NCBI GenBank assembly: GCA_964345045.1
Contig: CAYFPM010000002.1
Coordinates: forward strand, 140,330 to 204,329
DNA length: 64,000 nucleotides
Reading direction: 5' to 3'
Source of the DNA: an uncultured Gammaproteobacteria bacterium
Lineage (GTDB): Bacteria; Patescibacteriota; Patescibacteriia; Magasanikbacterales; UBA922
Positions 285 through 63,242 of this stretch are shown in pieces; positions within the stretch are counted from its first letter, which is position 1; the number at the start of each line of letters is the position of its first letter. Made by a program: the position numbers and the translations under genes. Below the pieces are notes generated by a model. It searched no databases and was not told the DNA's origin. It saw only the letters and a list, made by a program, of their open reading frames with translations.

Positions 285-287
285 ACT

Positions 288-320
288 AAAAATCCTCAGT
301 GCAAGACTGAGGATTTTTAG
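288..320. terminator. bidirectional rho-independent terminator
   Basis: Hairpin aatcctcagt/actgaggatt (5-nt loop gcaag) with an A-run before and a T-run after. It lies between convergent ORFs. Confidence 0.7.
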
Positions 321-379
321 TATTTGAGGAAGTCTGTTATGCCCCGTTCGAGACTTCTTCTGGTTGGGACTCGGCAAAG

Positions 380-670
380 CTAGGTGCAAGCTCCGTTGCA
401 GGTACAAGCGCCATCTCTCTTGTGCGGCTTGCACTGACCACAAGTGGGACAGTGGTAGTAGCCACATCCAAACCCATCATTGCCATGGGTACACTTCTTC
501 GCACTACGACTGTCGATGATGTGTCTGTAGTCGCCGCAACCACACTCCACCAACCACCATCTTTTGCCACAGCTAGTACACTTGCTAGCAGGGTAGCCAT
601 CAAGTATTCCATCGGAAACAGCGTCCCCACCACACTTACAAGTGTGAGGATACAAAAAGCTTGTTGTCAT
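380..670 (-). CDS. small cysteine-rich protein (96 aa, about 18 Cys, many CxC and CxxC pairs), unknown family
   Basis: ATG at 668-670 is preceded by AGGAGG at an 8-nt spacing. Translation is MTTSFLYPHTCKCGG...CPTCGQCKPHKRDGACTCNGACT. The local GC content is clearly higher than the flanks. Confidence 0.5.
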   Translation of the reverse strand: MTTSFLYPHTCKCGGDAVSDGILDGYPASKCTSCGKRWWLVECGCGDYRHIIDSRSAKKCTHGNDGFGCGYYHCPTCGQCKPHKRDGACTCNGACT

Positions 671-774
671 CCCCAATTCCTCCTACAAACACCAGTTAAC
701 CATTTAAAGAAATTCGTGTCAAACAAAAAACTGACCAAAAGTCAGTTTTAAAATTTAAAATTACAAATTTGAAA

Positions 775-1479
775 TTAAATTGCTGCTCTTATTTTCTTTT
801 CGTGTTTTCTTCCCACATAATGACCTTTGGCACTACAAACAGCCTCGTAGCTATGCGCTGGTCCTAACAAACATAGACCATATTCAAAAGATAAAATTTG
901 TTCCCTTATCTCTTCGGCCAATTCGGGGTGCTCTTGTTCGTCGTCGGCCATAGTACGCAGAGTGTCTAATCTTTTTTCAATATCATCCAATATTATTTGG
1001 AATTCAACCACTTTCTTTTCGTATCTCTGTCTATCACCGGTTACCACAGCTTGGGCAGCGTGATCCCTTACAGACTTGTTCATCTCTACCAGAGCCATGC
1101 ACAATTCGGTTCTCTCTTCTGGAGTAAAAAAAGAGGCTGGATTACCAGTATGCAAATCTCTAAGAGTTCCTCCATGAGCCAAAAATTCTTGATATCTATT
1201 GGCAATATTTTTGGTTAATTTGCCAAGCAAAAATTTTTCTCCGAGCTGTGCCTCGTATACATCCAAAAATTCTTCAAAAGCTTTTCTATATGGCCATAAC
1301 TTTTTACCAAATACAATTACTGTTTTATCTAATTCTTTAATTTCCAAATCAAAATTAGACCTTATTTGTTCTATAGCTTGGTCAATATCATCTACAATTT
1401 CTGCCGGAACCAAAGGCGGCACGTCTTTGCGTAACCTTTCAAATATCCAAAGGGTGTGTTGTACAATTGGAGTGTGCAT
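775..1479 (-). CDS. hypothetical protein (234 aa)
   Basis: Long ORF with AT-rich native-like composition. No recognised motifs. Confidence 0.5.
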   Translation of the reverse strand: MHTPIVQHTLWIFERLRKDVPPLVPAEIVDDIDQAIEQIRSNFDLEIKELDKTVIVFGKKLWPYRKAFEEFLDVYEAQLGEKFLLGKLTKNIANRYQEFLAHGGTLRDLHTGNPASFFTPEERTELCMALVEMNKSVRDHAAQAVVTGDRQRYEKKVVEFQIILDDIEKRLDTLRTMADDEQEHPELAEEIREQILSFEYGLCLLGPAHSYEAVCSAKGHYVGRKHEKKIRAAI

Positions 1480-8516: not shown

Positions 8517-9011
8517 TTACCGATTACACACGGCAGGATCACTAAAGTTACCATTGGCACAAGGGTTGTATTCTTCTGTGTCGGAGTAATGGAAAAAACC
8601 TTCTTCCGGCTCTCCTACAGATCTTCTAACCGTTCTATCTACAAATATCAATATAGAATAGGCACTAGCAGCTACCAAAACTCCAATCACAGCCGTACGC
8701 AAAGTCTTTTTGCCTTTTTCTACTTTTTGTTCGTCTCCACCAGAAGTTAAGATAAGATAACCGGCATACACAGTATAACCAATAAATAGAATTCCAATAA
8801 AACCAAGTAAGCGACGAATAATCTGGGCAGCAACCAATCTAGGATCTTCTGCTATGCCAAAATCGGCTCCTCTATTTCCAGCAAAGGCTCCGGTTTGTTG
8901 ATTCAAATCTTCGGCAAAGCTGGCCGCATTTACAAAATCCGAAGTTGCTAAAAAAAACAAACCAGCCAAAGCAAAGCTAAACAATAATATTTTTTTCTTT
9001 TTGCTAAACAT
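8517..9011 (-). CDS. pilin-like secreted protein, TrbC/VirB2-like two-helix core (paralog 1) with a short Cys-containing C-terminal tail
   Basis: Signal peptide. Core LLGFIGILFIGYTVYAGYLILTSGGDEQKVEKGKKTLRTAVIGVLVAASAYSI. Tail ends ...NPCANGNFSDPAVCNR. Confidence 0.6.
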   Translation of the reverse strand: MFSKKKKILLFSFALAGLFFLATSDFVNAASFAEDLNQQTGAFAGNRGADFGIAEDPRLVAAQIIRRLLGFIGILFIGYTVYAGYLILTSGGDEQKVEKGKKTLRTAVIGVLVAASAYSILIFVDRTVRRSVGEPEEGFFHYSDTEEYNPCANGNFSDPAVCNR

Positions 9012-9016
9012 AGTTA

Positions 9017-9460
9017 TTAGGGATTCGATCTATTTTGTTCCAAAGCTTCTCTCACGGCTTCTCTAGGATTTTGCTTTTGCAAAGAACCTTGCACCGCGCT
9101 ACTTATAAACCTAGTAATAGAGTAAGCCAAAAGAACTATAATAAGACCAATTATGGCTCCGCGTACAGTTTTGGTGGCTTTTTCTACCTTACTTTCGTCT
9201 CCACGAGAGGTAATATACCAATAGCCGGCCATAAGTACCAAAACTATAAAAAAAGTTCCTACAAAGCCAAGTAAGACTTGTACAATCTCGGCAATGATTA
9301 TCCTAGGGTCAGCCGCACCTCCAAAACCGGCTCTATTGGCTCCGGCTGTAATCTGACTACCGACTTGGCTACCCAAATCTCCTGCCATAGCTGGAGAAAA
9401 GAAAAACAAAGAAAGTGATAAAGAAAAAAACAAAACCAAAATCACTAATTTATTACGCAT
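9017..9460 (-). CDS. pilin-like secreted protein, TrbC/VirB2-like core (paralog 2)
   Basis: Signal peptide. Core LLGFVGTFFIVLVLMAGYWYITSRGDESKVEKATKTVRGAIIGLIIVLLAYSI. Confidence 0.6.
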   Translation of the reverse strand: MRNKLVILVLFFSLSLSLFFFSPAMAGDLGSQVGSQITAGANRAGFGGAADPRIIIAEIVQVLLGFVGTFFIVLVLMAGYWYITSRGDESKVEKATKTVRGAIIGLIIVLLAYSITRFISSAVQGSLQKQNPREAVREALEQNRSNP

Positions 9461-9462
9461 AC

Positions 9463-10188
9463 TTATAATCTAATCAAAGCTTGGTTATTGAAATTACAGG
9501 TCCAACCAACCCCTGGAGAATTACTCTGGCACCAAGTTCTACAACCAGAAGCGTCTTGAATATTGGTATTTGGTCTTTGGGTTCCTCCCCCAGTATTTCT
9601 CACCCATTCACAAACACCCGAAGTACTTTGCAAGATTTGACCATTAAACTCACAGTTCCAACCGGCTGCACTAACAGGATTCCCTACACACCAAGCCTGA
9701 CACTCGGCAGAGTTGGCAATTGGAGTGCTTGGGGTTTGGCTACCACTGCCTTGGGTGTTTACCCAACGACAACTACCACTACCACCAGCCGGAGAGCTAC
9801 TCCCCGTAGAACCACCACTAGCTCTATCTATTAGTCTAGGAACTACAAAAGAAGTAATGCTATAGGCTCCTACAGTAATTATAAGTCCAATTATCGCTGC
9901 TCTTATAATATTTTGAGCTTTGCTTATTTTGTCTTCTTCGCCTCTCGCAGTCATCCACATAAAACCAGCATATACCATAAGGATCATAAAGATTACCCCC
10001 ACAAAAGACAAGGCCGCTCGAACTATGTCTCCCAAAGTTTCGGCAAAACTAGTTTCTGTGGTGTTGGGGTCAAAACCAGCTTCTTTGGCTGCTTCTCTAG
10101 CCAGTCCAGTGCCCAAATCAATAGCCAAAGTGCTTTGTGGCAAAAATAATACCAAACCAAGCAAAACAAAAAGTAAAAACTTTTTCAT
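9463..10188 (-). CDS. pilin-like protein with a C-terminal tandem Cys-rich module (paralog 3)
   Basis: Core ALSFVGVIFMILMVYAGFMWMTARGEEDKISKAQNIIRAAIIGLIITVGAYSI. A C-terminal module of about 45 aa is repeated twice (CxWVxNTxG...CxxWCxxN...GWxCxFNxQ). Confidence 0.6.
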   Translation of the reverse strand: MKKFLLFVLLGLVLFLPQSTLAIDLGTGLAREAAKEAGFDPNTTETSFAETLGDIVRAALSFVGVIFMILMVYAGFMWMTARGEEDKISKAQNIIRAAIIGLIITVGAYSITSFVVPRLIDRASGGSTGSSSPAGGSGSCRWVNTQGSGSQTPSTPIANSAECQAWCVGNPVSAAGWNCEFNGQILQSTSGVCEWVRNTGGGTQRPNTNIQDASGCRTWCQSNSPGVGWTCNFNNQALIRL

Positions 10189-10321
10189 ACAAATAAATCA
10201 ATTCCCTTGCCCTGTTATTAATATTAAGGGCAAAGTATAAAATAAATATTTTTTAAACACTCATTAAATCTAATTCAATCCCTTTTCTGCGGAATCTTTA
10301 TAAATCAATGAAATCAGTGTT

Positions 10322-10360
10322 TAAAAAACCAAACCTGATTACAAGCATACACCAGGTTTA
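10322..10360 (-). terminator. intrinsic terminator after pilin paralog 4
   Basis: Minus-strand hairpin aaacctg...caggttt followed by a U-run (an A-run on the plus strand at 10323-10328). Confidence 0.55.
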
Positions 10361-10372
10361 GCCTGCCTATTA

Positions 10373-10744
10373 TTACGAACCACCTAATCTTCCAGTAACA
10401 AACACAGTGATTGCATAAGCTGATACTACTATAACCAGACCAATAATAGTACTGACTATAACTTTTTGCGCTTTTTGAACTTGTTCTTCGTTGCCACGAG
10501 CTGTCATCCAAAGATAACCTCCATAAACCATTAAGAGCAAAAATATAATACCCACCAGTGTAAGCGCTGCGTTTATAATTCTACCAGTAGCAGTTTCCAG
10601 ATCCCGAACATCGTCTACCCCGGCTCTACTACCAACATTTTCTAGTGGACTACCACCACCAAAAGCATCTTGTAGACCACCAGCCAAAGTCACACTAGGA
10701 AAAAGTAATAACGCAGTTAAAATTATTATTGAAAATTTTTTCAT
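10373..10744 (-). CDS. pilin-like secreted protein, TrbC/VirB2-like core (paralog 4)
   Basis: Start at MKKFSII. Core LTLVGIIFLLLMVYGGYLWMTARGNEEQVQKAQKVIVSTIIGLVIVVSAYAI. Confidence 0.6.
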   Translation of the reverse strand: MKKFSIIILTALLLFPSVTLAGGLQDAFGGGSPLENVGSRAGVDDVRDLETATGRIINAALTLVGIIFLLLMVYGGYLWMTARGNEEQVQKAQKVIVSTIIGLVIVVSAYAITVFVTGRLGGS

Positions 10745-10758
10745 ATAGCTTAATAATA

Positions 10759-11127
10759 TCAATTTGTAAGTCTACCGACAAATAGTGTAATAGCATAAGC
10801 CATTACTACCACAGCTGCCCCAATTATAGCAGCTATTACAGTTTTTTTACCCTTTTCTATTCTTTCTTCGCTACCTCTAGCTGTCATCCATATAAAACCA
10901 CCATAAATAGTAAGAATAAAGAAAAATAATCCTACAAGCGAAATCCCCGCACGTAGTCCATCGGCGACAATGTTTGTGACACTAGATCTTTCTACTCCAG
11001 CTCTCCCAGCTACGTTTTCGGTAAAACCAGTGGCATTATTTATTTTATAACCAGCCAAAACAATATTTGGCAGAAGCCAAAAAGCCAAGACTAAAGTATA
11101 AAACAAATGATTAACAATCTTGGGCAT
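10759..11127 (-). CDS. pilin-like secreted protein (paralog 5)
   Basis: Core ISLVGLFFFILTIYGGFIWMTARGSEERIEKGKKTVIAAIIGAAVVVMAYAI. Confidence 0.6.
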   Translation of the reverse strand: MPKIVNHLFYTLVLAFWLLPNIVLAGYKINNATGFTENVAGRAGVERSSVTNIVADGLRAGISLVGLFFFILTIYGGFIWMTARGSEERIEKGKKTVIAAIIGAAVVVMAYAITLFVGRLTN

Positions 11128-11129
11128 AA

Positions 11130-11693
11130 TTAATTACAATTGGAAGCCGATATATTTGGGTTCACAGTAGCTGTTAAGCCAGGACCTCCCTGACACAAAC
11201 TGCTAGCATTACTTGGAAAATAAGGACCTCTTACACATTGAACTGCTCCACCTGTAGCTCCAGTGGTACAAACCACACAACAACCAGCGTCTACCGCCGT
11301 AGTCCCAGCTCCAGGTGCTGGGGTTGTTGGTTGCGTAGCTGTACCTACACTTTGGAATACAAATCTGGTAATAGCATAAGAAGCAATCACCAAAATAAGA
11401 CCAATAATGGCAGCTGTCACCGTACTAAGTGCTTTTTTACTTATTTCTTCATTGCCTCTGGCTAGCATCCAACTAATACCCGCGTAGATCATAAGTATAA
11501 AAAACAGAACCCCGATTAGAGTAAGGCCAGCGCCAATTACATTTCCTACAATATCGGCTAGACTCCCCCTAGCTGTGGTATCTAGCCCAGATTCCTCTGC
11601 AGTTTGTTCCAATCCATAACCAGCCAAGGCCAAAGACGGAAAAGCTACAGCCAAACCAGCCAAGAAACCAAACAAATAATTTTTCTTTTTCAT
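11130..11693 (-). CDS. pilin-like protein with a Cys-rich C-terminal domain (paralog 6)
   Basis: Core LTLIGVLFFILMIYAGISWMLARGNEEISKKALSTVTAAIIGLILVIASYAI. Tail ...GCCVVCTTGATGGAVQCVRGPYFPSNASSLCQGG...SNCN. Confidence 0.6.
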   Translation of the reverse strand: MKKKNYLFGFLAGLAVAFPSLALAGYGLEQTAEESGLDTTARGSLADIVGNVIGAGLTLIGVLFFILMIYAGISWMLARGNEEISKKALSTVTAAIIGLILVIASYAITRFVFQSVGTATQPTTPAPGAGTTAVDAGCCVVCTTGATGGAVQCVRGPYFPSNASSLCQGGPGLTATVNPNISASNCN

Positions 11694-11704
11694 ATAATTA
11701 AAAA

Positions 11705-12319
11705 TTAAGAACCAGCGGCAATACAACAAACATTATTACGTCCTCCGGGACAAACACCTGTTTCTATAGTGGCCGGGTCACACGAATTTCTTTCCTGACA
11801 TCTATAATTAGGGTTAGTGTCACCAAAGGTAATTGTACAAAATGTTTGACATCTACCAGCAACACAAGCAGTCTGTGGACCACAGTCCGTATCGGCTGTA
11901 CAACTAGCCCCAGGAGCTCCAGCAGTAGCACCAGGTGCCCCACCAGAAGTAGTCCCTCCCTCGACTGTACCAAATACAAACCGAGTAATAGCATAAGCAG
12001 ACAATACTATAATAAGACCAACAATCGCAGAAACAATAATTTTTAGCCCTTTCATAGCTTGTTCATTGTTGCCATGAGAAGTCATCCAAGTAACTCCACC
12101 GTATATAGTAAGAATAAAAAATAGTACTCCTACAAAAGACAATGCTCCACCCAAAAATCTACCGGTAGCCGTAGGGATATCCCCAAATTTTTGCAAACCA
12201 GATCTACTAGAAACTAGTTCTAATCCATACTCATCGGCAGCCATAGTTGGAGGCAAAAACAAAAACATCCCTAGAAAAAAAGCCGACAAAAATGAAACTA
12301 TAAATATTTTTTTAGGCAT
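11705..12319 (-). CDS. pilin-like protein with a Cys-rich C-terminal domain (paralog 7)
   Basis: Core LSFVGVLFFILTIYGGVTWMTSHGNNEQAMKGLKIIVSAIVGLIIVLSAYAI. Tail has 10 or more Cys (CTADTDCGPQTACVAGRCQTFC...). Confidence 0.6.
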   Translation of the reverse strand: MPKKIFIVSFLSAFFLGMFLFLPPTMAADEYGLELVSSRSGLQKFGDIPTATGRFLGGALSFVGVLFFILTIYGGVTWMTSHGNNEQAMKGLKIIVSAIVGLIIVLSAYAITRFVFGTVEGGTTSGGAPGATAGAPGASCTADTDCGPQTACVAGRCQTFCTITFGDTNPNYRCQERNSCDPATIETGVCPGGRNNVCCIAAGS

Positions 12320-12329
12320 GGATCAAAAA

Positions 12330-12716
12330 TTATAGGGTATAACCAGTAGTTGCTCTATAAATATTGCTAAGAACAAAACTGGTTACTGCATAAGCGCTTA
12401 AAATTATAATAAGACCAATTACTGCTGCCCACAAAGTTTTTTTAGCTTTGGTGATACTTTCTTCGTTTCCTCCAGCAGTCATCCACATAAAACCGGCATA
12501 CAATATAACCCCCAAAGAGATGACTCCCAACAAACTAAGAAAAACTTGAATTATTGTGCCAACCGAATTTCTCAAATCACGATCTCCCAAACCACTAAAT
12601 TTGCCATATTCTGTGCCTAGCAAATCTGCTCCGGCCAAAACGGGATTTATTTGTAAAATAAAAAAACCGAAAGCTACAAAAGTTAAAAAAACTATGATTT
12701 GCTTGGTATTTTTCAT
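12330..12716 (-). CDS. pilin-like secreted protein (paralog 8)
   Basis: Start at MKNTKQIIVFL. Core FLSLLGVISLGVILYAGFMWMTAGGNEESITKAKKTLWAAVIGLIIILSAYAV. Confidence 0.55.
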   Translation of the reverse strand: MKNTKQIIVFLTFVAFGFFILQINPVLAGADLLGTEYGKFSGLGDRDLRNSVGTIIQVFLSLLGVISLGVILYAGFMWMTAGGNEESITKAKKTLWAAVIGLIIILSAYAVTSFVLSNIYRATTGYTL

Positions 12717-12824
12717 AAAGATTGATTTTGGTGCAAAAGAAACAAAAATTATCTCTTTAGCACCACCATCAAAATACAAAGGGCAGAGATCTCCACGTGG
12801 GGTTAGACCCCTGCCCAATGTAAG

Positions 12825-13244
12825 TTAGAATGTTACGGATTGTCCGGCACCTGCTGTAGTACCAGTGGCAATAGCCAACTGATTTAGCACGAAACGTGCA
12901 ATAGCAAAGGCACTCAAGATAATAGCCAAACCAATGATTCCAGCAAAGATTCTCTTGCGAGCTTCGGCAACTTTTTCTTCGTTACCACCAGCTGTCATCC
13001 ATTGAAAACCACCAGCCAAGATAATTACCAATGCAACGATACCCAAAAGGCTAAGTGCTACACGGATAATTTGACCGATAGTGTCACGGATATCTTGGTT
13101 TCCAAGTCCACTAGTTGTACCGTATTCTAGACCGAATACAGTAGCACCAGCGTGAGCAGAAGGAACTAGAAATACACCCATAAGAAGCACGGCAACAGCA
13201 ACCCAAGCGAGACGGTATTTGGCGACTGTGTTTATCCAATACAT
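12825..13244 (-). CDS. short pilin-like protein with a strong Shine-Dalgarno site, candidate major subunit (paralog 9)
   Basis: 139 aa. Core ALSLLGIVALVIILAGGFQWMTAGGNEEKVAEARKRIFAGIIGLAIILSAFAI. Upstream GGAGGTGAGACT-ATG is the strongest RBS in the cluster. Confidence 0.6.
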   Translation of the reverse strand: MYWINTVAKYRLAWVAVAVLLMGVFLVPSAHAGATVFGLEYGTTSGLGNQDIRDTIGQIIRVALSLLGIVALVIILAGGFQWMTAGGNEEKVAEARKRIFAGIIGLAIILSAFAIARFVLNQLAIATGTTAGAGQSVTF

Positions 13245-13345
13245 AGTCTCACCTCCCTTCCGTTATAAATGTTTTTATTCATATAGCAATAGTATACGTG
13301 AATAAGCCTAGTTTTACAAAATAGATGTGGACAGTGATATAGGGT

Positions 13346-14219: not shown

Positions 14220-15071
14220 CTAAAATCTAAAGACTTCCTCTACACCCAAACTGTCTAATAAGAAATTAACTAATAGATAGGCACTTAGCGAAATCGTTAC
14301 CCCTATTATAGCAGCCACTAGAATTTGTTGCCCTTGTTTAAATTTTTCTGGGTTGCCAAAAGCAGTTACCATTGTAACACCACCATAAACAAACATAACA
14401 AAAGCCACCACTCCAAGTAAACTAAACACTCTGGCTGAATAATTTAAAACCAAAATAAGCAAATCATCTACATCACGACAAGTTCCACTAATAGCACAAG
14501 CCGGCAAAAGACTTCCATCTTCGGCTGTATAACCAGCACTAAGACTTGATTCCAATATGGTTATACAAACATTATCACTCCAACCACAAGCCGAGGATCT
14601 TTCACAAGTAGTAGAATCTCTAATATCTCTACAAATATTGCCATCTGCCAAAGAATAACAAGCATTGTTTACCCAAAAACAACTGCCTTGGTTGCCCCCA
14701 CTCTCACACTGTGATCTGTCTAGCTCCGGGCACTTTACAATAGTTTCTACAAATTTGTCTCTACATCTAATATGCCCTAGACAATCTATTTCTCTTTCTC
14801 TTATCAAATCACAAGTTTCAAAACCTTCTCTTCTGGATCTTATACAATTCTTTTTTACTTCTGTAGTTTTGCAAGGACTGGTTTGCTTTATACTACAACT
14901 GTTAACTCTAAATTCTGTATCATGTCCTCTTTTTATCTCTTCTATACAACACTGTGCCGCACTAGCACTATCTACCTGCAAAAAATAAGAAAAAAATAAA
15001 ACAAAAACAAATATGCCAAATCTGTTAAAACGTTTTAATGATTTCATGCTTTCATGATTTAATGATTTCAT
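14220..15071 (-). CDS. secreted Cys-rich protein with a C-terminal pilin core (paralog 11)
   Basis: About 20 Cys in the ectodomain. C-terminus VFSLLGVVAFVMFVYGGVTMVTAFGNPEKFKQGQQILVAAIIGVTISLSAYLLVNFLLD. Confidence 0.55.
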   Translation of the reverse strand: MKSLNHESMKSLKRFNRFGIFVFVLFFSYFLQVDSASAAQCCIEEIKRGHDTEFRVNSCSIKQTSPCKTTEVKKNCIRSRREGFETCDLIREREIDCLGHIRCRDKFVETIVKCPELDRSQCESGGNQGSCFWVNNACYSLADGNICRDIRDSTTCERSSACGWSDNVCITILESSLSAGYTAEDGSLLPACAISGTCRDVDDLLILVLNYSARVFSLLGVVAFVMFVYGGVTMVTAFGNPEKFKQGQQILVAAIIGVTISLSAYLLVNFLLDSLGVEEVFRF

Positions 15072-15083
15072 GTTTTAATATTT

Positions 15084-16196
15084 TTAAAATGGTCTAAAAA
15101 AATCTATTACACCAAAAGCGTCTAACAAGAAATTGACCAACAAGTAAGCGCTAAAAACTATTACCAAACCAACTACCGAAGCAACCAAGACATTAACCCC
15201 TTTTTTAAATTTTTCTGGATTACCAAAAGATGTAATCATAGTGATACCGCCTACCAAAAAACTAATAAAGGCAAGTAAACCAGCAAAACCAAACGCCCAA
15301 GTAGCATAACCAAGTTGCTGCTGCAAAATATCGTTCAAACTATCGCAAGTACCATCGTGACCACAAGGAGGAAAAGCTCCTGGTCTACTAAAATCTATAT
15401 TGCCCGACAAACCAGATTGGAGCAAGGTGTTGCATTTGCCAGTATCTTCATTCCACTTGCAAACTTTACTGCCAGCTCCACCATCACAAAGATCTTTGCT
15501 TCTCAATTTGAAACAGAGATCATTATTTTGTCTAGATTCACACTTGTTTTCAAAAACAAAACAAGAAGCCAAAGGACAGCTAGCAGCACTATGATCTAGG
15601 CAATTGATGGTTCCGCTTATCAAAACTTCATCTGAAAAACCTATAAAATATAGATATCTACCTCCATTTACCGCCGGGGTAGTGTATCTCACCCTAGAAT
15701 TACAACTTTGATTTGGAACTGAAACTGTTTTTTGTAATTTGTAAGAAACATTATCCAAAGTTTGTTTGTAAGCAAATCCAGCCACGTTATTTCGCCACCA
15801 GCCGGCAGTTTGAAAAACACCAGCCGAGCAGTAAGTAATTTCTTCGTTTACTAACCATTTCCCAGCACTATTAAATTCTATCCCCGTAGCCGTATTTAAT
15901 TCTTGCAATGCTCCAATAGTTTTTAGTTGATCATAACTAACGGTTTGGTCGTTTTGATCTACCAAAACACAAAAACTAAAATTAGGAATTGGTTCAAAAT
16001 TTGGATTACCGTTGTCATTGTTAGCTGCTACAAATACTGCATATCTTTTGCCACTGGGAGGAGTTGGGCAGTTAACATTGTAATCCGATTGAGCCAAGCT
16101 AGGAGAAGGAAATAAAAAGAAAATAAAAATCAAAAAAACCAGCTTGCTAAAATATTTTCTTATTTTTTGTTTTTTTAAATTTTTTGTTTTTAGCAT
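15084..16196 (-). CDS. secreted Cys-rich protein with a C-terminal pilin core (paralog 12)
   Basis: C-terminus FGFAGLLAFISFLVGGITMITSFGNPEKFKKGVNVLVASVVGLVIVFSAYLLVNFLLDAFG closely resembles paralog 11. Confidence 0.55.
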   Translation of the reverse strand: MLKTKNLKKQKIRKYFSKLVFLIFIFFLFPSPSLAQSDYNVNCPTPPSGKRYAVFVAANNDNGNPNFEPIPNFSFCVLVDQNDQTVSYDQLKTIGALQELNTATGIEFNSAGKWLVNEEITYCSAGVFQTAGWWRNNVAGFAYKQTLDNVSYKLQKTVSVPNQSCNSRVRYTTPAVNGGRYLYFIGFSDEVLISGTINCLDHSAASCPLASCFVFENKCESRQNNDLCFKLRSKDLCDGGAGSKVCKWNEDTGKCNTLLQSGLSGNIDFSRPGAFPPCGHDGTCDSLNDILQQQLGYATWAFGFAGLLAFISFLVGGITMITSFGNPEKFKKGVNVLVASVVGLVIVFSAYLLVNFLLDAFGVIDFFRPF

Positions 16197-23307: not shown

Positions 23308-23326
23308 CTTACATCGATCTTTTTTT

Positions 23327-23394
23327 CACTATTGGGCACTATCTTTATCAAACTTTGGTAACGATTGTGCCCAATAGCGGATTAGGCAACCGCA
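23327..23394 (+). promoter_or_regulatory. conserved leader element A (dyad TTATCAAACTTTGGTAA plus gtgcccaa hairpin)
   Basis: About 62 of 66 nt are identical to the leader at 24836-24893. It lies between the promoter and the ATG. The dyad is at 23345-23361. An inverted repeat attgggcac/gtgcccaat flanks it. Confidence 0.45.
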
Positions 23395-23411
23395 ATTTTT
23401 AAGGAGACAGG

Positions 23412-23801
23412 ATGCAAGCTTGTTTGATTTGTGGGGCGAATACCCCCACCAGCGACGACTTCGAGAGAAACAACGACGACGACTTCGCACGTTTGCAAGT
23501 GTTCAACGGGAATGAACATCGATTCGTCGTGATCTGTGGTGGTTGCTGCGGGGCTCCGGAACCTGTCCTGCTGGGGGTGAACTTGACTGGCCCCGTGTCT
23601 ACAACCGGTTTCAAGATCAAAATCCCCGGGCAAATCCCCAGTCACACCAACATTGCATGGACGCTCGAAGACATCTTGCGCCGCATGATCCAAGGAGCCA
23701 GGGTCCCCGAGCTGACCGATGCGCACATCGCGAAGTTGCTCGAGGCCTTCGGGATCGCCCCCTCCCCCACCCAGCCCCATACTCTCCGTTGGCTGGCGTA
23801 A
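23412..23801 (+). CDS. small Zn-ribbon protein A (129 aa), GC-rich foreign-like gene
   Basis: Motifs CLIC...CGGCC. RBS AAGGAG 6 nt upstream of the ATG. GC-rich codon third positions. Paralog of the ORF at 24910. Confidence 0.5.
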   Translation: MQACLICGANTPTSDDFERNNDDDFARLQVFNGNEHRFVVICGGCCGAPEPVLLGVNLTGPVSTTGFKIKIPGQIPSHTNIAWTLEDILRRMIQGARVPELTDAHIAKLLEAFGIAPSPTQPHTLRWLA

Positions 23802-23919
23802 AGTAGCGGCCTGCTACAGCGGTAGCCCATATACGCACCAGAGTGCGGGCGTACCAAAGGTACCCTGCGCTCGCCCCTATCTCAATTCTTTTTAAAATTA
23901 AAAGTAATTGAAATAAACA

Positions 23920-23948
23920 AAATCCAACACTACGTTGGATTTTGTTTT
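23920..23948 (+). terminator. intrinsic terminator
   Basis: Hairpin atccaac-actac-gttggat followed by TTTGTTTT. Confidence 0.7.
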
Positions 23949-23979
23949 GCAAAAATTTTTGAACCAAAACTAAATACAC

Positions 23980-24008
23980 TTGACAACCCTGCCAGAAAAT
24001 GATAAACC
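23980..24008 (+). promoter_or_regulatory. putative promoter (TTGACA, weak -10)
   Basis: TTGACA at 23980-23985. Candidate -10 elements are GATAAA or TAAACC. Confidence 0.3.
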
Positions 24009-24039
24009 AAAACCAAGTTCACTCTGTAGGAGGAGTACT

Positions 24040-24600
24040 ATGAATAACTTGGAACTGGCCGACTTCGGCATCTCCGGGACCCCCGGCTTTGCCCAGATCG
24101 CCTTCCTCACAACACCCACCCCTACCCAGAACCTTCATGGCATGCTTCGAGCCTTTTTGGCACCAGAGGACGGACTCTGCGACAATCCCCGAGACCTTCA
24201 AGCCAAGATGCTTCGGCTCTCTCGAGACCTCGGCAGACACACCCTGATGGATGAGTGTACTCAAAATTGCTGGGGCAAGCTCTATTACGATAGACGTGTG
24301 AAAGAGCGCAACTTCAGACTATTGATGATTGTCTTCCCGGATCCACTGGTTGCCCTAGGGGTGGCCTTGGACGCCGCCAGCGAGGATCGCGGAGGACTAG
24401 GCAGAATGATAGTGCCCGACGAGGATGTCCGGGCGCAAACCACTGGACTCGATCGTAACAACTACAATTGGTCCAGACCCGAACGCACTGTCCGCCATCG
24501 AAAAGACGGTGCCACCTTCGTTTACCCAGGTGGCAAAAGGCTTCGAATCGACTGGCCCGAACGGCCACCGATGCGTACCCGCTGGCTCAGATCTTTGTAG
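24040..24600 (+). CDS. hypothetical protein (186 aa), GC-rich island gene
   Basis: AGGAGG is 7 nt upstream of the ATG. Translation MNNLELADFGISGTPGF... . No family recognised. Confidence 0.45.
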   Translation: MNNLELADFGISGTPGFAQIAFLTTPTPTQNLHGMLRAFLAPEDGLCDNPRDLQAKMLRLSRDLGRHTLMDECTQNCWGKLYYDRRVKERNFRLLMIVFPDPLVALGVALDAASEDRGGLGRMIVPDEDVRAQTTGLDRNNYNWSRPERTVRHRKDGATFVYPGGKRLRIDWPERPPMRTRWLRSL

Positions 24601-24689
24601 GTAGCCACCGCGCTACCAACCCTAGCGACGAGTTACCCCCTCGTCCTCCCATTCCAATTCTTTTTAGCTTTAGAAATAATTGGACTGTA

Positions 24690-24723
24690 CAAAAACCGAC
24701 TGTGTAAGTCGGTTTTTGTTTTG
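24690..24723 (+). terminator. intrinsic terminator
   Basis: Hairpin aaaccgact-gtgta-agtcggttt followed by TTGTTTTG. Confidence 0.7.
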
Positions 24724-24755
24724 TAAAAATAGTTCTACTAACTTTGGCAAAACAC

Positions 24756-24784
24756 TTGACAAAAACCAAACAATTCTATAACCT
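24756..24784 (+). promoter_or_regulatory. sigma70-like promoter (TTGACA ... TATAAC)
   Basis: TTGACA at 24756-24761. TATAAC at 24777-24782 (15-nt spacer) or TAACCT (17-nt spacer). Confidence 0.45.
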
Positions 24785-24835
24785 AAGTCGTTGTTCTTTG
24801 TAGGAGAAATGCTCAGCATTTATTTCGCCGTTTGA

Positions 24836-24893
24836 CACTGTCTTTATCAAGCTTTGGTAAAGATTGTGCCCAACAGCGGACTTGGCACCCGCA
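24836..24893 (+). promoter_or_regulatory. conserved leader element B (dyad TTATCAAGCTTTGGTAA plus gtgcc/ggcac hairpin)
   Basis: Paralogous to leader A. The dyad is at 24844-24860. A hairpin GTGCC-N13-GGCAC follows. Confidence 0.45.
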
Positions 24894-24909
24894 TCGACCC
24901 GAGGTAATC

Positions 24910-25242
24910 GTGAAAACTTGCATCGTCTGTAATACCCAAACCGTGAAAACCAGTGGCAGTGGATGTGCAGATCCAAGGCTGGAAATCTACAACGGAGGAA
25001 CCGAAGTGTCTCGGTGCATCTGCCCCAAGTGCTGCCAGGCTCGCGAGCCCATCGTGCTCACGGTCTCAAGCTCTGGAGAAGTCGCCCAGCAGCGCATCGG
25101 CAGTGAGACCAACACCGTAAACCGCCTGCCGCTCGCTCAGGTTCTCGCCGCTCTCCAACAAGCAGAGCACATCCACCTCACCGGCAATGAGGTCGCCCAG
25201 ATCACCCGTCACTTCAACGCCCCTCTAGCAGCTGCCAGCTAG
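24910..25242 (+). CDS. small Zn-ribbon protein B (110 aa), paralog of A
   Basis: GTG start after GAGGT. Motifs CIVC...CICPKCC. A shared C-terminal pattern (LT..E.A.I...F) with protein A. Confidence 0.45.
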   Translation: MKTCIVCNTQTVKTSGSGCADPRLEIYNGGTEVSRCICPKCCQAREPIVLTVSSSGEVAQQRIGSETNTVNRLPLAQVLAALQQAEHIHLTGNEVAQITRHFNAPLAAAS

Positions 25243-25352
25243 ATGAGCAACGAACAGAGCGGTGGATACAGCCATACAACTTGGCTCACTCCACCGCTCG
25301 ATCCCAAAAAAGTTATAAATTAAAAAACCGGCTTAGACCGATTTTTTTGTTT

Positions 25353-26273: not shown

Positions 26274-26714
26274 ATGAACGTGAACGGAGATACCGCCCGC
26301 CGGTTTGTGTGGGCAATCAACCATTCTTGCATGATTCACATGCATTTTTTCGGAGGGGAAGAATATCTTTCGCTGACGAAGTCGCCAGGAGGTATGACTT
26401 ACACAGCCAAACTCGACGACGGCAAGCCCCTCCTGACCATCGAAGGTCACTGGGATGACACCAAAAATGGAGAACACGACTTGAGTGGAGTGTACAAAGC
26501 CAACCTCACTAGCGAAAGGAGCGGCACCCGATTTGTAACATTGTGGGGGTGTACTAACTACACTTTCGTGAATAGTTACCCAGCAAGACTGGAAGGACAC
26601 CCCTTAAAGCGAGGGAAAACTATGACCGCATGGGATTACCTGGCTAGATTTGGCTACCCCCTCGACGTATGCCCCAAAAAAGCCCGTCGAGACAATTCAA
26701 AAACAGCTTTGTAG
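26274..26714 (+). CDS. hypothetical protein (146 aa), GC-rich gene with a leaderless start
   Basis: TTGACT ... TATAGG lies immediately upstream of the ATG. GC-rich codon usage. A terminator follows. Confidence 0.45.
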   Translation: MNVNGDTARRFVWAINHSCMIHMHFFGGEEYLSLTKSPGGMTYTAKLDDGKPLLTIEGHWDDTKNGEHDLSGVYKANLTSERSGTRFVTLWGCTNYTFVNSYPARLEGHPLKRGKTMTAWDYLARFGYPLDVCPKKARRDNSKTAL

Positions 26715-35392: not shown

Positions 35393-35459
35393 AAAAACAC
35401 TAAACCAATAGTGTTTTTATGATTTTATGATTTAATGTTTTCTTGTTTTAATGATTAAA

Positions 35460-36179
35460 TCATTTCAGCCAAAGATTATCTACTACCTGACCAACAGCAT
35501 AACCAACCACAGCAGCCAACCCTGCCAAAGTTACCATCTCCATACCAGCTTTGATCCAATTCCTCTTGGAGAATTTGGCGGTGTATACTCCTAGCAAAAA
35601 CAAACCAACCAAAGTAATAGCAATAGACAAAGCAATCGCTGTATAAATAGGAAAGATAAAATAAGCTACAAGTGGAATCGCCCCGCCAAAAATATAAGAA
35701 ATCCCCATAACAGATCCGTTTTTTAACGGCTCTTCCAATTCACTTGGGAAAATTTTCAATTCATGATAAGCCATTTCTTGCAAAAACAAATCCGGTTTTT
35801 GCGAAGCTTCTTCGGCCATTTTCTTGGACAAATCTTTTGACCAACCATCTTCTTCGTACATCTCTATTAATTCTTGTTTTTCCTCTTCTGGATATTTTTC
35901 TAATTCTTGTTTTTCTTCAAACAATTTCCTCTCGTCTACTGCTCGCACCGACTTGCTAGACAAGTACGACCCCACTCCCATAGAAATTGATTCTACCGAA
36001 ACTACAACCAATCCTACCAAGATAGTGGTAAAAGGATCCTGTGTTGCAGCGGCTACACCAGTAATGGCCCCAAGGGTAGACACCATACCATCTTCCATCC
36101 CAAAGACCAATTCCCGTATAGTAGAAGCCTTGGTACTGTTGGTGTGGTGGATGTACTCTGGGTTATGCTCTACAGGCAT
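35460..36179 (-). CDS. VIT1/CCC1-family iron/manganese transporter
   Basis: Motif ELVFGMEDGMVSTLGAITGVA. Central acidic loop and C-terminal TM helices. Confidence 0.65.
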   Translation of the reverse strand: MPVEHNPEYIHHTNSTKASTIRELVFGMEDGMVSTLGAITGVAAATQDPFTTILVGLVVVSVESISMGVGSYLSSKSVRAVDERKLFEEKQELEKYPEEEKQELIEMYEEDGWSKDLSKKMAEEASQKPDLFLQEMAYHELKIFPSELEEPLKNGSVMGISYIFGGAIPLVAYFIFPIYTAIALSIAITLVGLFLLGVYTAKFSKRNWIKAGMEMVTLAGLAAVVGYAVGQVVDNLWLK

Positions 36180-41375: not shown

Positions 41376-41681
41376 CTACCCCCCAATCTCACCGTAGCGA
41401 ATCACAAAGCTAGCGTCTACCGGAGCGGTGAATTTGATCTTGTCTCCTTCTTGAAACACGAGGGTATCGCTGAGCTGGTGATAGCTCTTCTCTCCAACAA
41501 CCAGTTGTCCATTGGTGACCGTGAACCGCATCGTACACCGAGCCAACCCCAGGTCGTAGGGAGCCTCTCTCGTATCGGCCATGCCGATTGAGAGAACTTT
41601 TTTCGATCCCGTGTTATCGTAGCGGTTCATGATCATCACCTGACCACTATCGAACCGGGTAACGTCTTTGAATCGAGCCAT
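41376..41681 (-). CDS. small hypothetical protein (101 aa), tandem paralog 2, GC-rich
   Basis: Purine-rich SD GGAAAGAGGGAAAAGG. Upstream TTGACA lies inside the palindrome aaccattgacaaaatggtt. Motif FTVTNGQLVVGE...FQEGDKIKF. Confidence 0.45.
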   Translation of the reverse strand: MARFKDVTRFDSGQVMIMNRYDNTGSKKVLSIGMADTREAPYDLGLARCTMRFTVTNGQLVVGEKSYHQLSDTLVFQEGDKIKFTAPVDASFVIRYGEIGG

Positions 41682-42722: not shown

Positions 42723-42935
42723 CTAGAGGGCACCTCTTGTATCTGGATTGCAAATCCTGTGGCAATGGCGACACTGCAATTGGCCACGAGGATTCCTCCC
42801 CACCTGCCCCTTGCATACAGGGCAAACCATCCATCTATTCTCTCTTCTCAATTTCTCTATTACCCGAAAAAGGCACCCCAATCTGTGCCCCTGTTTTTTC
42901 CCGCATAGTTTACACGAAACCTCCAAAGGCACCAC
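42723..42935 (-). CDS. small Zn-ribbon protein (70 aa, four CxxC pairs)
   Basis: GTG start after AGGAG. Motifs CKLCG, CPVCKG and CRHCHRIC. Local GC content is elevated. Antisense ORFs overlap, so strand assignment is tentative. Confidence 0.35.
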   Translation of the reverse strand: MVPLEVSCKLCGKKQGHRLGCLFRVIEKLRRENRWMVCPVCKGQVGRNPRGQLQCRHCHRICNPDTRGAL

Positions 42936-51485: not shown

Positions 51486-51640
51486 CAAAAAATATCAAGA
51501 GTGAGGATAGCGACTTGGCGCCACAACCCTCTACCAACCGAGCTTAACTACGGTGGTTCCAACCCCAATGGGAAAGATAGGCCTTTTAAACAAAAGGAAA
51601 ATAAGGAGTTTCTTATCTTATCCGGGTAAGAAATTTTTGT
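51486..51640 (+). ncRNA. candidate SAM-I (S-box) riboswitch with an intrinsic terminator expression platform
   Basis: P1 UAUC/GAUA. J1/2 AAGAG. Segments resembling the S-box consensus (AUCAAGAG, ACCAACC, GGUGnUUCC, GAAAGAUA). A terminator hairpin tttctta-N11-taagaaa plus a U-run lies at 51607-51640, about 75 nt before the ATG. Confidence 0.45.
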
Positions 51641-51716: not shown

Positions 51717-52649
51717 ATGAAAGACGGAAAAGACACTTATTTCTTCAGCGATTGCTTTCAACACGGAAGCTCCCAATTTGATCCGAATGCCGCCTCCCGA
51801 ACGATGGCTCGCTTTCGCAAGATTAGTAGACAAATCAGGCCAGAAGTATCCCCACCTTTCCTCGACAGACAAGGAGCTTGGCGAGGGACTGACCTAGGTT
51901 TTCTGATGGCCGAGTTGGCTCATCAACACACAGGGCTGGTCATTGGTGGAAATGCTGCCAAGCGAATCCCTGGGAAAAAAAACGGAACTTCTTTTTCTTT
52001 GGCAACGGTAGGTGGCAACCTAATCCTTTCTACTGTGGGCAAAAACACCTACCCAGTAATGGCTCGTCTTCTTGGGCTAGACTCAATCGAAGTTGCCCTC
52101 CTCGATATCGGAAACGCTGCCCAGAAGATGAATGTCCAAAACAAAGAAAGGATGACAACCACTCAATACCGTTCGCTCTGGTTTCAAACAGCGGCTTTGG
52201 CTCAGCTGGCTCACCTCGAAACACTCCCCACTCACCCAAATTCGATCTTCGGCGGGGAAGTAAAAACAATCAAGCCTGACAGCGGAATGCGAATTGTCTA
52301 TATCGATAGCTTCGGAAACTTGAAGCTCTCTGGTAGAAGAAAAGACTTGCCCAAGGGAGAAAGAATCAAGGTCTCTTTCCCAGAAAAAGCACATCGAAAC
52401 CTCTCGCCACTTGGAGCGAACAACACAGCACATATCACAGGTGGAAGGGAAAACGAATTTCAAGTTTCAGTCGGATCAAGTATCCCTACCGAAGCAGGCG
52501 GTCTACTAGAACTCCAAATCCTCGGTGGAACTAGGATAGGAGTCGATACGGCTGCAGACAAAGTTCTAGGGCACTTCCTGGGCGTCCCGGACGTTCGCTG
52601 CCATCACGACCTCATAGGTATCAAAGTGAGGCTCAGCAAAGCCTCCTAA
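51717..52649 (+). CDS. DUF62-like protein (SAM hydroxide adenosyltransferase / SalL-FlA family), GC-rich gene
   Basis: N-terminus FFSDCFQHGSS. Central YRSLWFQTAALAQLA. C-terminal domain IVYIDSFGNLKLS resembles the D.FGN motif of DUF62 enzymes. Foreign-like codon usage. Confidence 0.4.
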   Translation: MKDGKDTYFFSDCFQHGSSQFDPNAASRTMARFRKISRQIRPEVSPPFLDRQGAWRGTDLGFLMAELAHQHTGLVIGGNAAKRIPGKKNGTSFSLATVGGNLILSTVGKNTYPVMARLLGLDSIEVALLDIGNAAQKMNVQNKERMTTTQYRSLWFQTAALAQLAHLETLPTHPNSIFGGEVKTIKPDSGMRIVYIDSFGNLKLSGRRKDLPKGERIKVSFPEKAHRNLSPLGANNTAHITGGRENEFQVSVGSSIPTEAGGLLELQILGGTRIGVDTAADKVLGHFLGVPDVRCHHDLIGIKVRLSKAS

Positions 52650-62549: not shown

Positions 62550-63242
62550 TTATGAGACCTGGCACTCGTCGTAGAGGCCATGCCACCAGCTGCCCATGGC
62601 AGATAGGACGGCTTGGGCTCCGCAGACAAAGTCGGCTTGGCACACTCCGTGGCTTTGCAAAAGAGCTTGCTTCAACCCTTCCTGATGCCCGGGCTCCCAG
62701 ACGTTGATGTGCTTATCCAAGAATTTTCGCAGGCCATTAGCCAGTGGTTTGTTATGGAAATCCTCAGAAAGCCTCTCCAAGAGGACCTTTACGACCAACA
62801 GCTCGGGACGAGCCGTAGCCTCCAGAGCATAGGCTGCCCCCAAGGAAAGTGACGAATTAGAACCGTTAATCGCATCTTCGACACTACCAAGAAAGCTACT
62901 TGTAGCCTTCGAGGAAATGGTATGGCGAACGGACAACCCCAAGCCTACCTGGAGTGTCCCTTCCAGCATCTCGTAGTGGGTAATACCCACACTGTCCGAG
63001 CCGAGTTCTTCGCCGATATTGCGGCTGAGCTCTAGCTCTACAGTCTTCAAACCACACCGACGCGCTGCATCCCTAGATCTCGTCAGAAACCGGACAATCT
63101 CCTTGGGAAAAAGAGTGTATTGAGCAACAACATACTCCAGGATCGCACGGTTGGTGTGGCGCGTGGTGAAGGGGTTCCCATCGACCTTTAGCTCAGCAGT
63201 GCTTGCCACGAGTGCGTCGATGGTCTGGATTGAATTTTTCAT
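62550..63242 (-). CDS. hypothetical protein (230 aa), GC-rich, possibly a heme-oxygenase-like or iron-containing redox enzyme fold
   Basis: Higher GC than its neighbours. Helical sequence with a NIGEELG....H.EM segment reminiscent of ExxH metal sites. Weak assignment. Confidence 0.3.
   Translation of the reverse strand: MKNSIQTIDALVASTAELKVDGNPFTTRHTNRAILEYVVAQYTLFPKEIVRFLTRSRDAARRCGLKTVELELSRNIGEELGSDSVGITHYEMLEGTLQVGLGLSVRHTISSKATSSFLGSVEDAINGSNSSLSLGAAYALEATARPELLVVKVLLERLSEDFHNKPLANGLRKFLDKHINVWEPGHQEGLKQALLQSHGVCQADFVCGAQAVLSAMGSWWHGLYDECQVS

What the first reader, a model, noticed from the sequence alone, without database searches (positions are those of the whole stretch)
340..680. 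96-aa protein with about 18 cysteines behind a consensus AGGAGG RBS, in a GC-elevated patch
The protein MTTSFLYPHTCKCGGD...CPTCGQCKPHKRDGACTCNGACT has repeated CxC and CxxC pairs and Gly/His/Asp between them. It reads like a metallothionein-like or metal-binding peptide, or possibly a RiPP precursor. It has the best SD in the first 5 kb and ends at a shared bidirectional terminator. No radical-SAM or other modifying enzyme is adjacent. Together with 23412, 24910 and 42723 it fits a pattern: the GC-rich islets preferentially encode small Cys-rich proteins.
Basis: seen in the sequence. Interest (0 to 1): 0.55.

Follow-up and report, generated by a model that had tools for sequence, protein, structure and literature searches.

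The report
Orphan cysteine-rich zinc-ribbon mini-protein gene
This is a real but undescribed 96-residue protein gene. It has 14 cysteines arranged like tandem zinc-binding knuckles, occurs only in a few Patescibacteria (CPR) genomes, and sits here in a small, compositionally foreign single-gene insertion. It is an ordinary kind of protein whose function is unknown.

Summary
The ORF is real: window 383-670 on the minus strand, stop at 380-382, 96 aa. AGGAGG lies 8 nt upstream of the ATG, and GC is 51% against 38% for the window. It has 14 cysteines, not about 18.

About nine distinct homologues (82-126 aa, 39-51% identity) exist, and every one that could be placed is from a Patescibacteria genome or metagenome contig. 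They share the signature C-x(1,2)-C-x17-C-x2-C-x8-C-x6-H-x9-C-x2-C-x3-H-C-x2-C-x2-C-...-C-x-C-x3-C.

Codon-position identities (0.55/0.55/0.33) support this frame, and stops in the other frames of the homologues argue against the antisense ORF 422-751. The public assembly annotated a wrong frame here.

AlphaFold gives a four-stranded all-beta fold like a zinc ribbon. No Pfam, NCBIfam, PHROG, PADLOC, PDB or fold match is significant.

Three syntenic relatives lack the gene, with 32-116 bp where the window has about 490 bp. Its codon usage is also foreign, so it looks like an acquired single-gene cassette.

The RiPP reading is not supported. A metallothionein-like role is neither supported nor excluded. 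The most likely reading is a cytoplasmic protein scaffolded by several zinc ions, role unknown. Interest is modest.

The parts
383..670 (-). Coding sequence of the 96-aa Cys-rich protein (stop codon at 380-382).
   Evidence: Searches give the ORF. Codon-position identity of 0.55/0.55/0.33 across 8 members, and stops in the other frames, come.
679..684 (-). Shine-Dalgarno AGGAGG, 8 nt upstream of the ATG.
   Evidence: The homologues have GGAGG-type sites in the same place.
694..722 (-). Promoter-like site: perfect -35 TTGACA (722-717), 17-nt spacer, weak -10 TTAACT (699-694).
   Evidence: Read from the sequence. The consensus scan did not call it because the -10 is too weak. TTGACA or TTGACT boxes also lie upstream of the homologues in L006, L012, L014 and L015. 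This is an inference, not a demonstrated promoter.
727..749 (-). Terminator-like hairpin that ends the upstream 234-aa gene. It marks the upstream edge of the cassette.
285..321 (.). Bidirectional terminator hairpin shared with the convergent ATP-grasp gene. It marks the downstream edge of the cassette.
322..726 (-). Single-gene cassette of about 400 bp that is absent from syntenic relatives. GC is about 50%.
   Evidence: Relatives L022, L023 and L024 have only 32-116 bp with one hairpin between the 234-aa gene and the ATP-grasp gene. GC3 is 0.52 against 0.34 expected.
337..633 (-). Overlapping +1-frame ORF (GTG start, 'VGTLFPMEY...') that the public ENA assembly annotates instead. Judged not to be a gene.
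   Evidence: This frame has stops in most homologues.
422..751 (+). Antisense 109-aa ORF. Judged not to be a gene.
   Evidence: The corresponding frame is closed by stops in 6 of 8 homologues.

Best explanation
The minus-strand ORF 383-670 is a genuine protein-coding gene. It belongs to a small, undescribed family found only in Patescibacteria.

The product is a soluble cytoplasmic mini-protein whose fold is held together by metal ions, most likely three or four Zn(II).
- Site 1 is a classical zinc ribbon: knuckle C11-x-C13, a beta-hairpin, then knuckle C31-x2-C34.
- Site 2 uses C43, H50 (or a Cys that substitutes for it), C60 and C69.
- The C-terminal H73-C74-x2-C77-x2-C80 ... C89-x-C91-x3-C95 offers seven ligands for one or two more ions.

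Outside the ligands and a few packing residues (W38, D53, R55) the sequence evolves fast. What selection maintains is the metal scaffold.

The gene sits in a self-contained cassette of about 400 bp, with a -35 box, a strong SD, the ORF, and terminators on both sides. The cassette was inserted between two convergent conserved genes and has foreign codon usage, so it is an accessory, horizontally acquired gene.

Inferred and not shown: the protein acts as a metal-scaffolded binding module for a partner that varies between lineages, rather than as a bulk metal store.
For: - Real gene: there are 5 homologues at E from 2e-15 to 3e-6, 7 with a profile search, and 2 more genome loci named Patescibacteria and Candidatus Magasanikbacteria. 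Codon-position identity is 0.55/0.55/0.33, and only this frame is open in all 8 members.
- Ligand array: C11, C13, C31, C34, C43, C60, C69, H73, C74, C77 and C80 are invariant, and the spacing is conserved. H50 is replaced by a Cys in P0005 and P0007.
- Cytoplasmic: no hydrophobic segment in any member.
- Fold: two AlphaFold models (pLDDT 72.9 and 75.9) give the same four-stranded beta topology, with the knuckles flanking the hairpins. The best, non-significant, fold hits are zinc ribbons: a TFIIB-type finger at probability 0.82, Pol III C11, and the Topo I C-terminal domain.
- Fast evolution: in syntenic genomes L005 and L016, DnaE is 73% and DUF948 75% identical, but this protein is only 43% identical.
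- Cassette: three syntenic relatives lack it. GC3 is 0.52 against 0.34 expected, p about 1e-4, and Lys is AAG in 6 of 7 codons against 14% in the background. It has its own terminators and SD.
- Not an RNA: no Rfam hit over the cassette, and the folding z-score is -1.08.
Against: - No metal binding has been measured, and Zn is assumed from the motif types. The C-terminal third is modelled with low confidence in the window protein (pLDDT 52-56).
- No conserved neighbour points to a partner or pathway.
- Net charge is near neutral to mildly basic (pI 6.6-9.0), so nucleic-acid binding is not indicated.
- Fast evolution outside the ligands fits a metallothionein-like role equally well.
- Gain by insertion is inferred from three relatives. 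Loss in those lineages is not formally excluded.
Confidence: 0.6

Rival explanations
1. Metallothionein-like metal buffer or detoxifier. The protein sequesters several thiophilic ions (Zn, Cd, Cu) in thiolate sites or clusters. It is carried as an accessory resistance gene.
For: - Ligand density is about 17%: 14 Cys plus 2 His in 96 aa.
- Seven ligands sit within the last 23 residues.
- Individual members carry extra, non-conserved Cys.
- Only the ligands are strongly conserved, and the rest diverges fast.
- It is a stand-alone, strongly signalled, patchily distributed, acquired gene.
- Bacterial BmtA metallothioneins also contain a zinc-finger fold and aromatic residues, and their small ORFs are often missed by annotation (PMC3323870).
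Against: - No member matches any Pfam family significantly, so none matches a metallothionein model, and the PDB profile search found no metallothionein chain.
- The knuckle spacing is rigid and typical of mononuclear Cys4 sites.
- W38, D53 and R55 are invariant, and the predicted beta-sheet is ordered.
- No SmtB/ArsR, Zur, or metal pump is adjacent in any of 8 contexts.
Confidence: 0.2
2. Small iron-sulfur redox protein. The C-x2-C-x2-C motif plus a distal Cys binds a [4Fe-4S] or [3Fe-4S] cluster, and an N-terminal zinc ribbon is attached.
For: - H-C-x2-C-x2-C is invariant.
- In P0003 the motif reads C-x2-C-x2-C-x3-C-P, the canonical ferredoxin spacing.
- One member gives a very weak Fer4_21 hit, E = 1.3.
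Against: - The spacing to the fourth Cys is 5-8 residues in the other members.
- No significant Fer4 match exists.
- The models show no ferredoxin-like alpha/beta fold.
- No redox enzyme lies consistently nearby.
Confidence: 0.08
3. RiPP precursor peptide, perhaps modified by the neighbouring ATP-grasp ligase in the manner of graspetides.
For: It is a small Cys-rich ORF. The convergent neighbour is an ATP-grasp enzyme.
Against: - The ATP-grasp gene is conserved at the same place in relatives that lack the Cys-rich gene.
- No ATP-grasp, radical-SAM, lanthipeptide, cyclodehydratase or exporter gene lies next to any homologue.
- Conservation covers the whole chain with fixed Cys spacing and a predicted fold, with no leader/core organisation.
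Confidence: 0.03
4. Not this gene. The expressed product would be the antisense ORF 422-751, the +1-frame ORF 337-633 that the public assembly annotates, or a non-coding RNA.
For: The GC-rich patch keeps several frames open. A gene caller chose the +1 frame in ENA ERZ930068.
Against: - Those frames carry stops in most homologues.
- The third-position divergence pattern fits only the Cys-rich frame.
- The SD sits in front of the Cys-rich ATG.
- There is no Rfam hit over the cassette, and the RNA fold is unexceptional, z = -1.08.
Confidence: 0.02

Closest known systems
Zinc-ribbon domains (TFIIB/TFIIS/Rpb9-C11 type; Pfam zinc-ribbon families such as Zn_ribbon_4 and Zn_ribbon_15)
   Same: Two Cys knuckles (CxC/CxxC ... 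CxxC) flank a beta-hairpin, with an aromatic residue after the second knuckle. The predicted sheet is three- to four-stranded and antiparallel. The best weak fold hits are zinc ribbons.
   Different: No significant sequence or fold match. Here two ribbon-like modules are fused to a seven-ligand C-terminal tail in a free-standing 82-126-aa protein. No catalytic or nucleic-acid-binding domain is attached.
Bacterial metallothioneins of the BmtA/SmtA type
   Same: Small, cytosolic and Cys/His-rich. They contain a zinc-finger-like folded core and aromatic residues, are often unannotated, and are often stand-alone genes (PMC3323870).
   Different: No detectable homology. This protein is about twice as long. 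Its ligand spacing suggests separate Cys4 or Cys3His sites, not one Zn4 cluster. No SmtB-type regulator is nearby.
Haloarchaeal small CPxCG zinc-finger proteins (for example Brz of Halobacterium salinarum, PMC2253796)
   Same: Free-standing mini-proteins built around CPxCG-type knuckles. The window protein has C74-P-T-C-G78. They are lineage-restricted, mostly of unknown role, and some are regulatory.
   Different: Different domain of life and no sequence match (NCBIfam scan). Those proteins carry one or two knuckle pairs. This family has six or seven.
Clostridial-type [4Fe-4S] ferredoxin motif
   Same: The C-x2-C-x2-C core is invariant, and one member has the full C-x2-C-x2-C-x3-C-P.
   Different: The spacing is not conserved across the family, there is no Fer4 profile match, and the predicted topology is all-beta.

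Membership tests
Bacterial metallothionein (BmtA/SmtA) | Sequence match to the family model or to solved members | tested here: not met
   Pfam scans of all 8 members returned no significant family. The profile search of PDB chains found no metallothionein chain at E up to 10.
Bacterial metallothionein (BmtA/SmtA) | Small cytosolic protein with high Cys (and His) content | tested here: met
   14 Cys and 5 His in 96 aa. No signal peptide or transmembrane segment in any member.
Bacterial metallothionein (BmtA/SmtA) | Several metal ions bound in a metal-thiolate cluster with bridging Cys | not testable with these tools
   Needs metal analysis, native mass spectrometry or NMR of the purified protein.
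Bacterial metallothionein (BmtA/SmtA) | Association with metal-responsive regulation (SmtB/ArsR or Zur) or metal transport genes. This is frequent but not universal. | tested here: not met
   None in the window or in 8 homologue contexts.
Zinc ribbon (structural class) | Two Cys knuckles separated by a beta-hairpin, with the second knuckle followed by a strand | tested here: met
   C11-x-C13 ... C31-x2-C34 with predicted strands 16-23, 26-31 and 37-42. P0002 shows the same topology.
Zinc ribbon (structural class) | Significant structural similarity to solved zinc ribbons | tested here: inconclusive
Zinc ribbon (structural class) | Zn(II) actually bound | not testable with these tools
   Requires biochemistry.
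RiPP precursor | Cognate modifying enzyme or exporter encoded next to the precursor and co-conserved with it | tested here: not met
   The adjacent ATP-grasp gene persists in relatives without the Cys-rich gene. No such enzyme lies near any homologue.
RiPP precursor | Leader/core organisation | tested here: not met
   Conservation and fixed Cys spacing run from residue 11 to 95. The N-terminal 10 residues are the variable part.
4Fe-4S ferredoxin | C-x2-C-x2-C-x3-C-P motif and a Fer4 profile match | tested here: not met
   The full motif occurs only in P0003. The other members have x5-x8 before the next Cys. The best Fer4_21 E-value is 1.3, in one member.
Haloarchaeal small CPxCG zinc-finger proteins | Homology to the curated family models | tested here: not met
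   The NCBIfam scan gave no hit. Only a single CPxCG-like knuckle is shared.
Nuclear-receptor-type Zn module (lead from the PDB profile search) | Significant profile match | tested here: not met
   Best E = 0.064. The score of 15.5 bits is matched by a composition bias of 15.9.

The most novel reading that the evidence does not exclude
The family could be a new class of prokaryotic metallothionein or metallochaperone, built on a tandem zinc-ribbon scaffold and specific to Patescibacteria. It would spread between lineages as a self-contained single-gene cassette of about 400 bp that keeps GC3-rich codon usage in every host. In that case the 'GC-rich islets' would mark a pool of mobile accessory mini-genes in these reduced genomes.
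Probability: 0.15. Interest if true: 0.55.

Novelty: new member of a known kind. Interest (0 to 1): 0.3.

Why it matters
Patescibacteria have tiny genomes full of unannotated small proteins. This result adds a verified, lineage-restricted family with a clear metal-ligand signature, which could be turned into a profile for annotation.

It also gives a concrete case where a public gene call chose the wrong frame inside a GC-rich patch, so the true protein is missing from protein databases.

Comparison with syntenic relatives shows that at least this 'GC islet' is an inserted accessory gene. If the protein proves to be a metal buffer or a partner-binding module, it would bear on how these symbionts handle metals or regulate host interaction. 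Nothing here suggests a new principle.

Tried and rejected
- A single-sequence word-index search found nothing. The window protein itself is not in the collection, because only the wrong frame was called there.
- The first genome scan with the single protein found nothing.
- The 8-sequence alignment was too diverse to derive DNA patterns.
- Pfam, NCBIfam, PHROGs and PADLOC gave no significant family.
- The PDB sequence search gave nothing for the single sequence and only bias-driven nuclear-receptor hits for the profile.
- Viral contigs, the phage collection and the plasmid collection gave no relative, so there is no evidence for a phage or plasmid vehicle.
- The family profile found no paralogue among the window's six-frame ORFs.
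- No direct repeats flank the cassette.
- An HNH-nuclease reading of 'RHIID' was rejected. H50 is not invariant, no helix is predicted, and there is no Pfam HNH hit.
- High-expression codon bias as the cause of the high GC3 was rejected. The ribosomal protein S20 gene in the window has an ordinary GC3 of 0.35.
- Literature searches for the source project and for Cys-rich small proteins of Patescibacteria or CPR found nothing relevant.

Full report
**1. What is in the sequence**

The minus strand of window 380-670 carries an ATG-initiated ORF of 96 codons plus a stop: MTTSFLYPHTCKCGGD...CTCNGACT.
- AGGAGG lies at 679-684, 8 nt upstream of the ATG.
- Upstream of it are a perfect TTGACA (722-717) and, 17 nt further on, a weak -10-like TTAACT (699-694). 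This was read from the sequence; the consensus scan did not call it.
- A terminator-like hairpin at 727-749 closes the preceding 234-aa gene.
- A hairpin flanked by A and T runs at 285-321 lies 58 nt after the stop. It faces the convergent gene that ends at 284.
- The protein has 14 Cys, not about 18, plus 5 His and 14 Gly.
- The ORF is 51% GC in a 38% GC window.

Amino-acid composition explains only part of the GC excess. With the window's codon usage the expected GC is 45.7% and the expected GC3 is 34%, but observed GC3 is 52% (p about 1e-4). Third-position A is 10% against 35% in the background. Lys is AAG in 6 of 7 codons against 14% in the background.

**2. Is it a gene, and in which frame?**

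The GC-rich patch keeps several frames open: antisense 422-751 and the +1 frame 337-633.

A full HMMER scan of 1.84 billion representative proteins found five homologues of 82-93 aa at 45-51% identity, with E from 1.9e-15 to 3.4e-6. A profile search added two more. A genome scan added a Patescibacteria MAG (STC_25) and Candidatus Magasanikbacteria RIFOXYC2_FULL_40_16.

Across eight members, identity by codon position is 0.55, 0.55 and 0.33. Only the Cys-rich frame is open in all of them. The frame corresponding to the antisense ORF has stops in six of eight, and the +1 frame has stops in most. No Rfam family matches the cassette, and the RNA fold is unexceptional at z = -1.08.

So the Cys-rich frame is the gene.

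The same DNA in the public ENA assembly (ERZ930068, contig k127_70378) is annotated with the +1-frame ORF 'VGTLFPMEY...'. That is why the true protein is absent from the protein collection.

**3. Anatomy of the family**

The conserved signature, in window numbering, is:
C11-x(1,2)-C13-x17-C31-x2-C34-x8-C43-x6-H50-x9-C60-x2-C69-x3-H73-C74-x2-C77-x2-C80-x(3-8)-C89-x-C91-x3-C95.

- The window protein has a 6-residue insertion (THGNDGFG) inside the C60/C69 knuckle.
- In P0005 and P0007, H50 is missing and a Cys appears a few residues after C43, giving C-x2-C. This is a ligand swap, and it argues that these positions bind metal.
- The invariant non-ligand residues are W38, D53 and R55. GYPA and an aromatic pair before H73 are common.
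- No member has a hydrophobic segment. pI ranges from 6.6 to 9.0.

AlphaFold2 models of the window protein (pLDDT 72.9) and of P0002 (pLDDT 75.9) agree on four beta-strands, with the knuckles at the hairpin ends. This is a zinc-ribbon-like topology. The C-terminal tail is modelled poorly in the window protein.

No sequence or fold search gave a significant match. The weak top hits are zinc ribbons.

**4. Context and evolution**

The neighbours differ from locus to locus, and no modifying enzyme, transporter or metal regulator recurs. The one exception is the arrangement DUF948, then the Cys-rich gene, then dnaE. It is shared by the Magasanikbacteria loci (L001-L004, L016) and by L005.

In that syntenic pair, DnaE is 73% identical and DUF948 is 75% identical, but the Cys-rich protein is only 43% identical. 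The ligand scaffold is fixed and the rest evolves fast.

The 234-aa neighbour in the window is widely conserved in Patescibacteria; named hits include Magasanikbacteria and Nomurabacteria. Three relatives with 64-73% identical orthologues keep the surrounding synteny: XerC/D-like integrase, (SpoU), the 234-aa gene, then convergent ATP-grasp, a Pyr_redox-family oxidoreductase, Rpe and RpiB. They have only 32-116 bp and a single hairpin where the window has about 490 bp containing the Cys-rich gene.

Together with the foreign codon usage, this indicates a lineage-specific insertion of a single-gene cassette.

Every family member has GC3 above its host's expectation, with z from 1.75 to 5.7. The excess is smallest in the syntenic, presumably long-resident, copies and largest in the islet-like ones. 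I read this as transfer from CPR donors of about 50% GC, but that is inference. The ribosomal protein S20 gene has ordinary GC3, so plain expression bias is unlikely.

No relatives were found on viral contigs, in phage genomes or on plasmids, and no repeats flank the cassette. The vehicle is unknown.

**5. Mechanism**

Shown:
- It is a conserved, translated-frame gene.
- It has a fixed Cys/His array with knuckle spacing.
- A ligand swap occurs at H50.
- It has no export signal.
- The predicted fold is beta-ribbon.
- The rest of the chain diverges fast.
- Relatives show presence/absence at this site.

Inferred:
- The protein binds three to four Zn(II).
- The scaffold presents a variable surface to some partner.

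The metallothionein-like alternative, metal buffering as the function in itself, remains open at about 0.2. An Fe-S reading sits at about 0.08. It rests on the invariant C-x2-C-x2-C and on the full ferredoxin motif in P0003 only.

The RiPP reading is rejected. The only nearby candidate enzyme, the ATP-grasp ligase, is present in relatives that lack the gene.

**6. Comparison with known families, and novelty**

It works like a free-standing multi-zinc-ribbon mini-protein. The closest named comparisons are generic zinc ribbons, BmtA/SmtA metallothioneins (PMC3323870) and haloarchaeal CPxCG mini zinc-finger proteins (PMC2253796). Membership in each of these families was tested by profile and not met.

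It is therefore an undescribed family of a familiar kind.

The window has other GC3-rich islets, some encoding CxxC proteins, but they are unrelated to this one.

**7. Verdict**

This is a real gene in an orphan, Patescibacteria-restricted family. It is probably a zinc-scaffolded protein and it was acquired as a small cassette. Its function is unknown.

Interest is 0.3. The points of value are the corrected annotation, the ligand signature, and the islet-as-insertion result.

Noticed in passing
window 23320-25250: A GC-rich block (50-55% GC against 38%) holds a duplicated unit. A 75-nt direct repeat (23320-23394 and 24819-24893, 83% identical) precedes each of two ORFs with CxxC...C(C) motifs (23412-23801 and 24832-25242). 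A 206-aa GC-rich ORF (23980-24600) lies between them. None has a Pfam or PHROG hit, none is related to the 96-aa protein, and the 206-aa ORF has no viral-contig relative.
   Followed up: partly
window 337-633 (-), which is L019 5850-6143: The public ENA assembly ERZ930068 (PRJEB17505, contig k127_70378) annotates the +1-frame ORF 'VGTLFPMEY...' in place of the conserved Cys-rich frame. The true protein is therefore missing from the large protein collections.
   Followed up: yes
window 26274-26714, 41376-41681, 42723-42935, 51717-52649, 62550-63242: These are further ORFs with GC3 of 0.48-0.62 against about 0.30 in the background. One is a 70-aa Zn-ribbon-like protein with weak zf-Di19 and Trm112p hits. 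One is a 310-aa ORF downstream of the SAM riboswitch. One is a DUF3865 / haem-oxygenase-like protein. Whether they are insertions too was not tested.
   Followed up: partly
window 51487-51613 (+): A SAM-I/IV riboswitch (Rfam RF01725, 45.6 bits) lies upstream of the GC-rich 310-aa ORF 51717-52649. That ORF has only a weak SAM_HAT_C hit.
   Followed up: no
window 9000-13250 (-): A tandem array of about seven paralogous small genes shares two conserved segments (repeat families D1 and D3). Most have signal-peptide-like N-termini, and several are Cys-rich at 3-5% Cys.
   Followed up: no
window 775-1479 (-): The 234-aa helical protein next to the finding has no Pfam or NCBIfam family. It has at least 235 homologues at E of 1e-5 or better; the 120 best listed are 47-100% identical, and the named ones are Patescibacteria. 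It is a conserved CPR protein of unknown function in a stable syntenic block (SpoU methylase, the 234-aa gene, then convergent ATP-grasp, a Pyr_redox-family oxidoreductase, Rpe and RpiB).
   Followed up: partly
L005 against L016 (homologue loci): In the syntenic DUF948, Cys-rich, dnaE arrangement, the Cys-rich protein is 43% identical while its flanking proteins are 73-75% identical. This is unusually fast evolution for a protein whose ligand positions are invariant.
   Followed up: yes
window 15020-15095 and 35401-35476: Two short arrays of an 8-nt period (TGATTTCA/TGATTTTA-like) lie at gene boundaries (repeat family D2).
   Followed up: no
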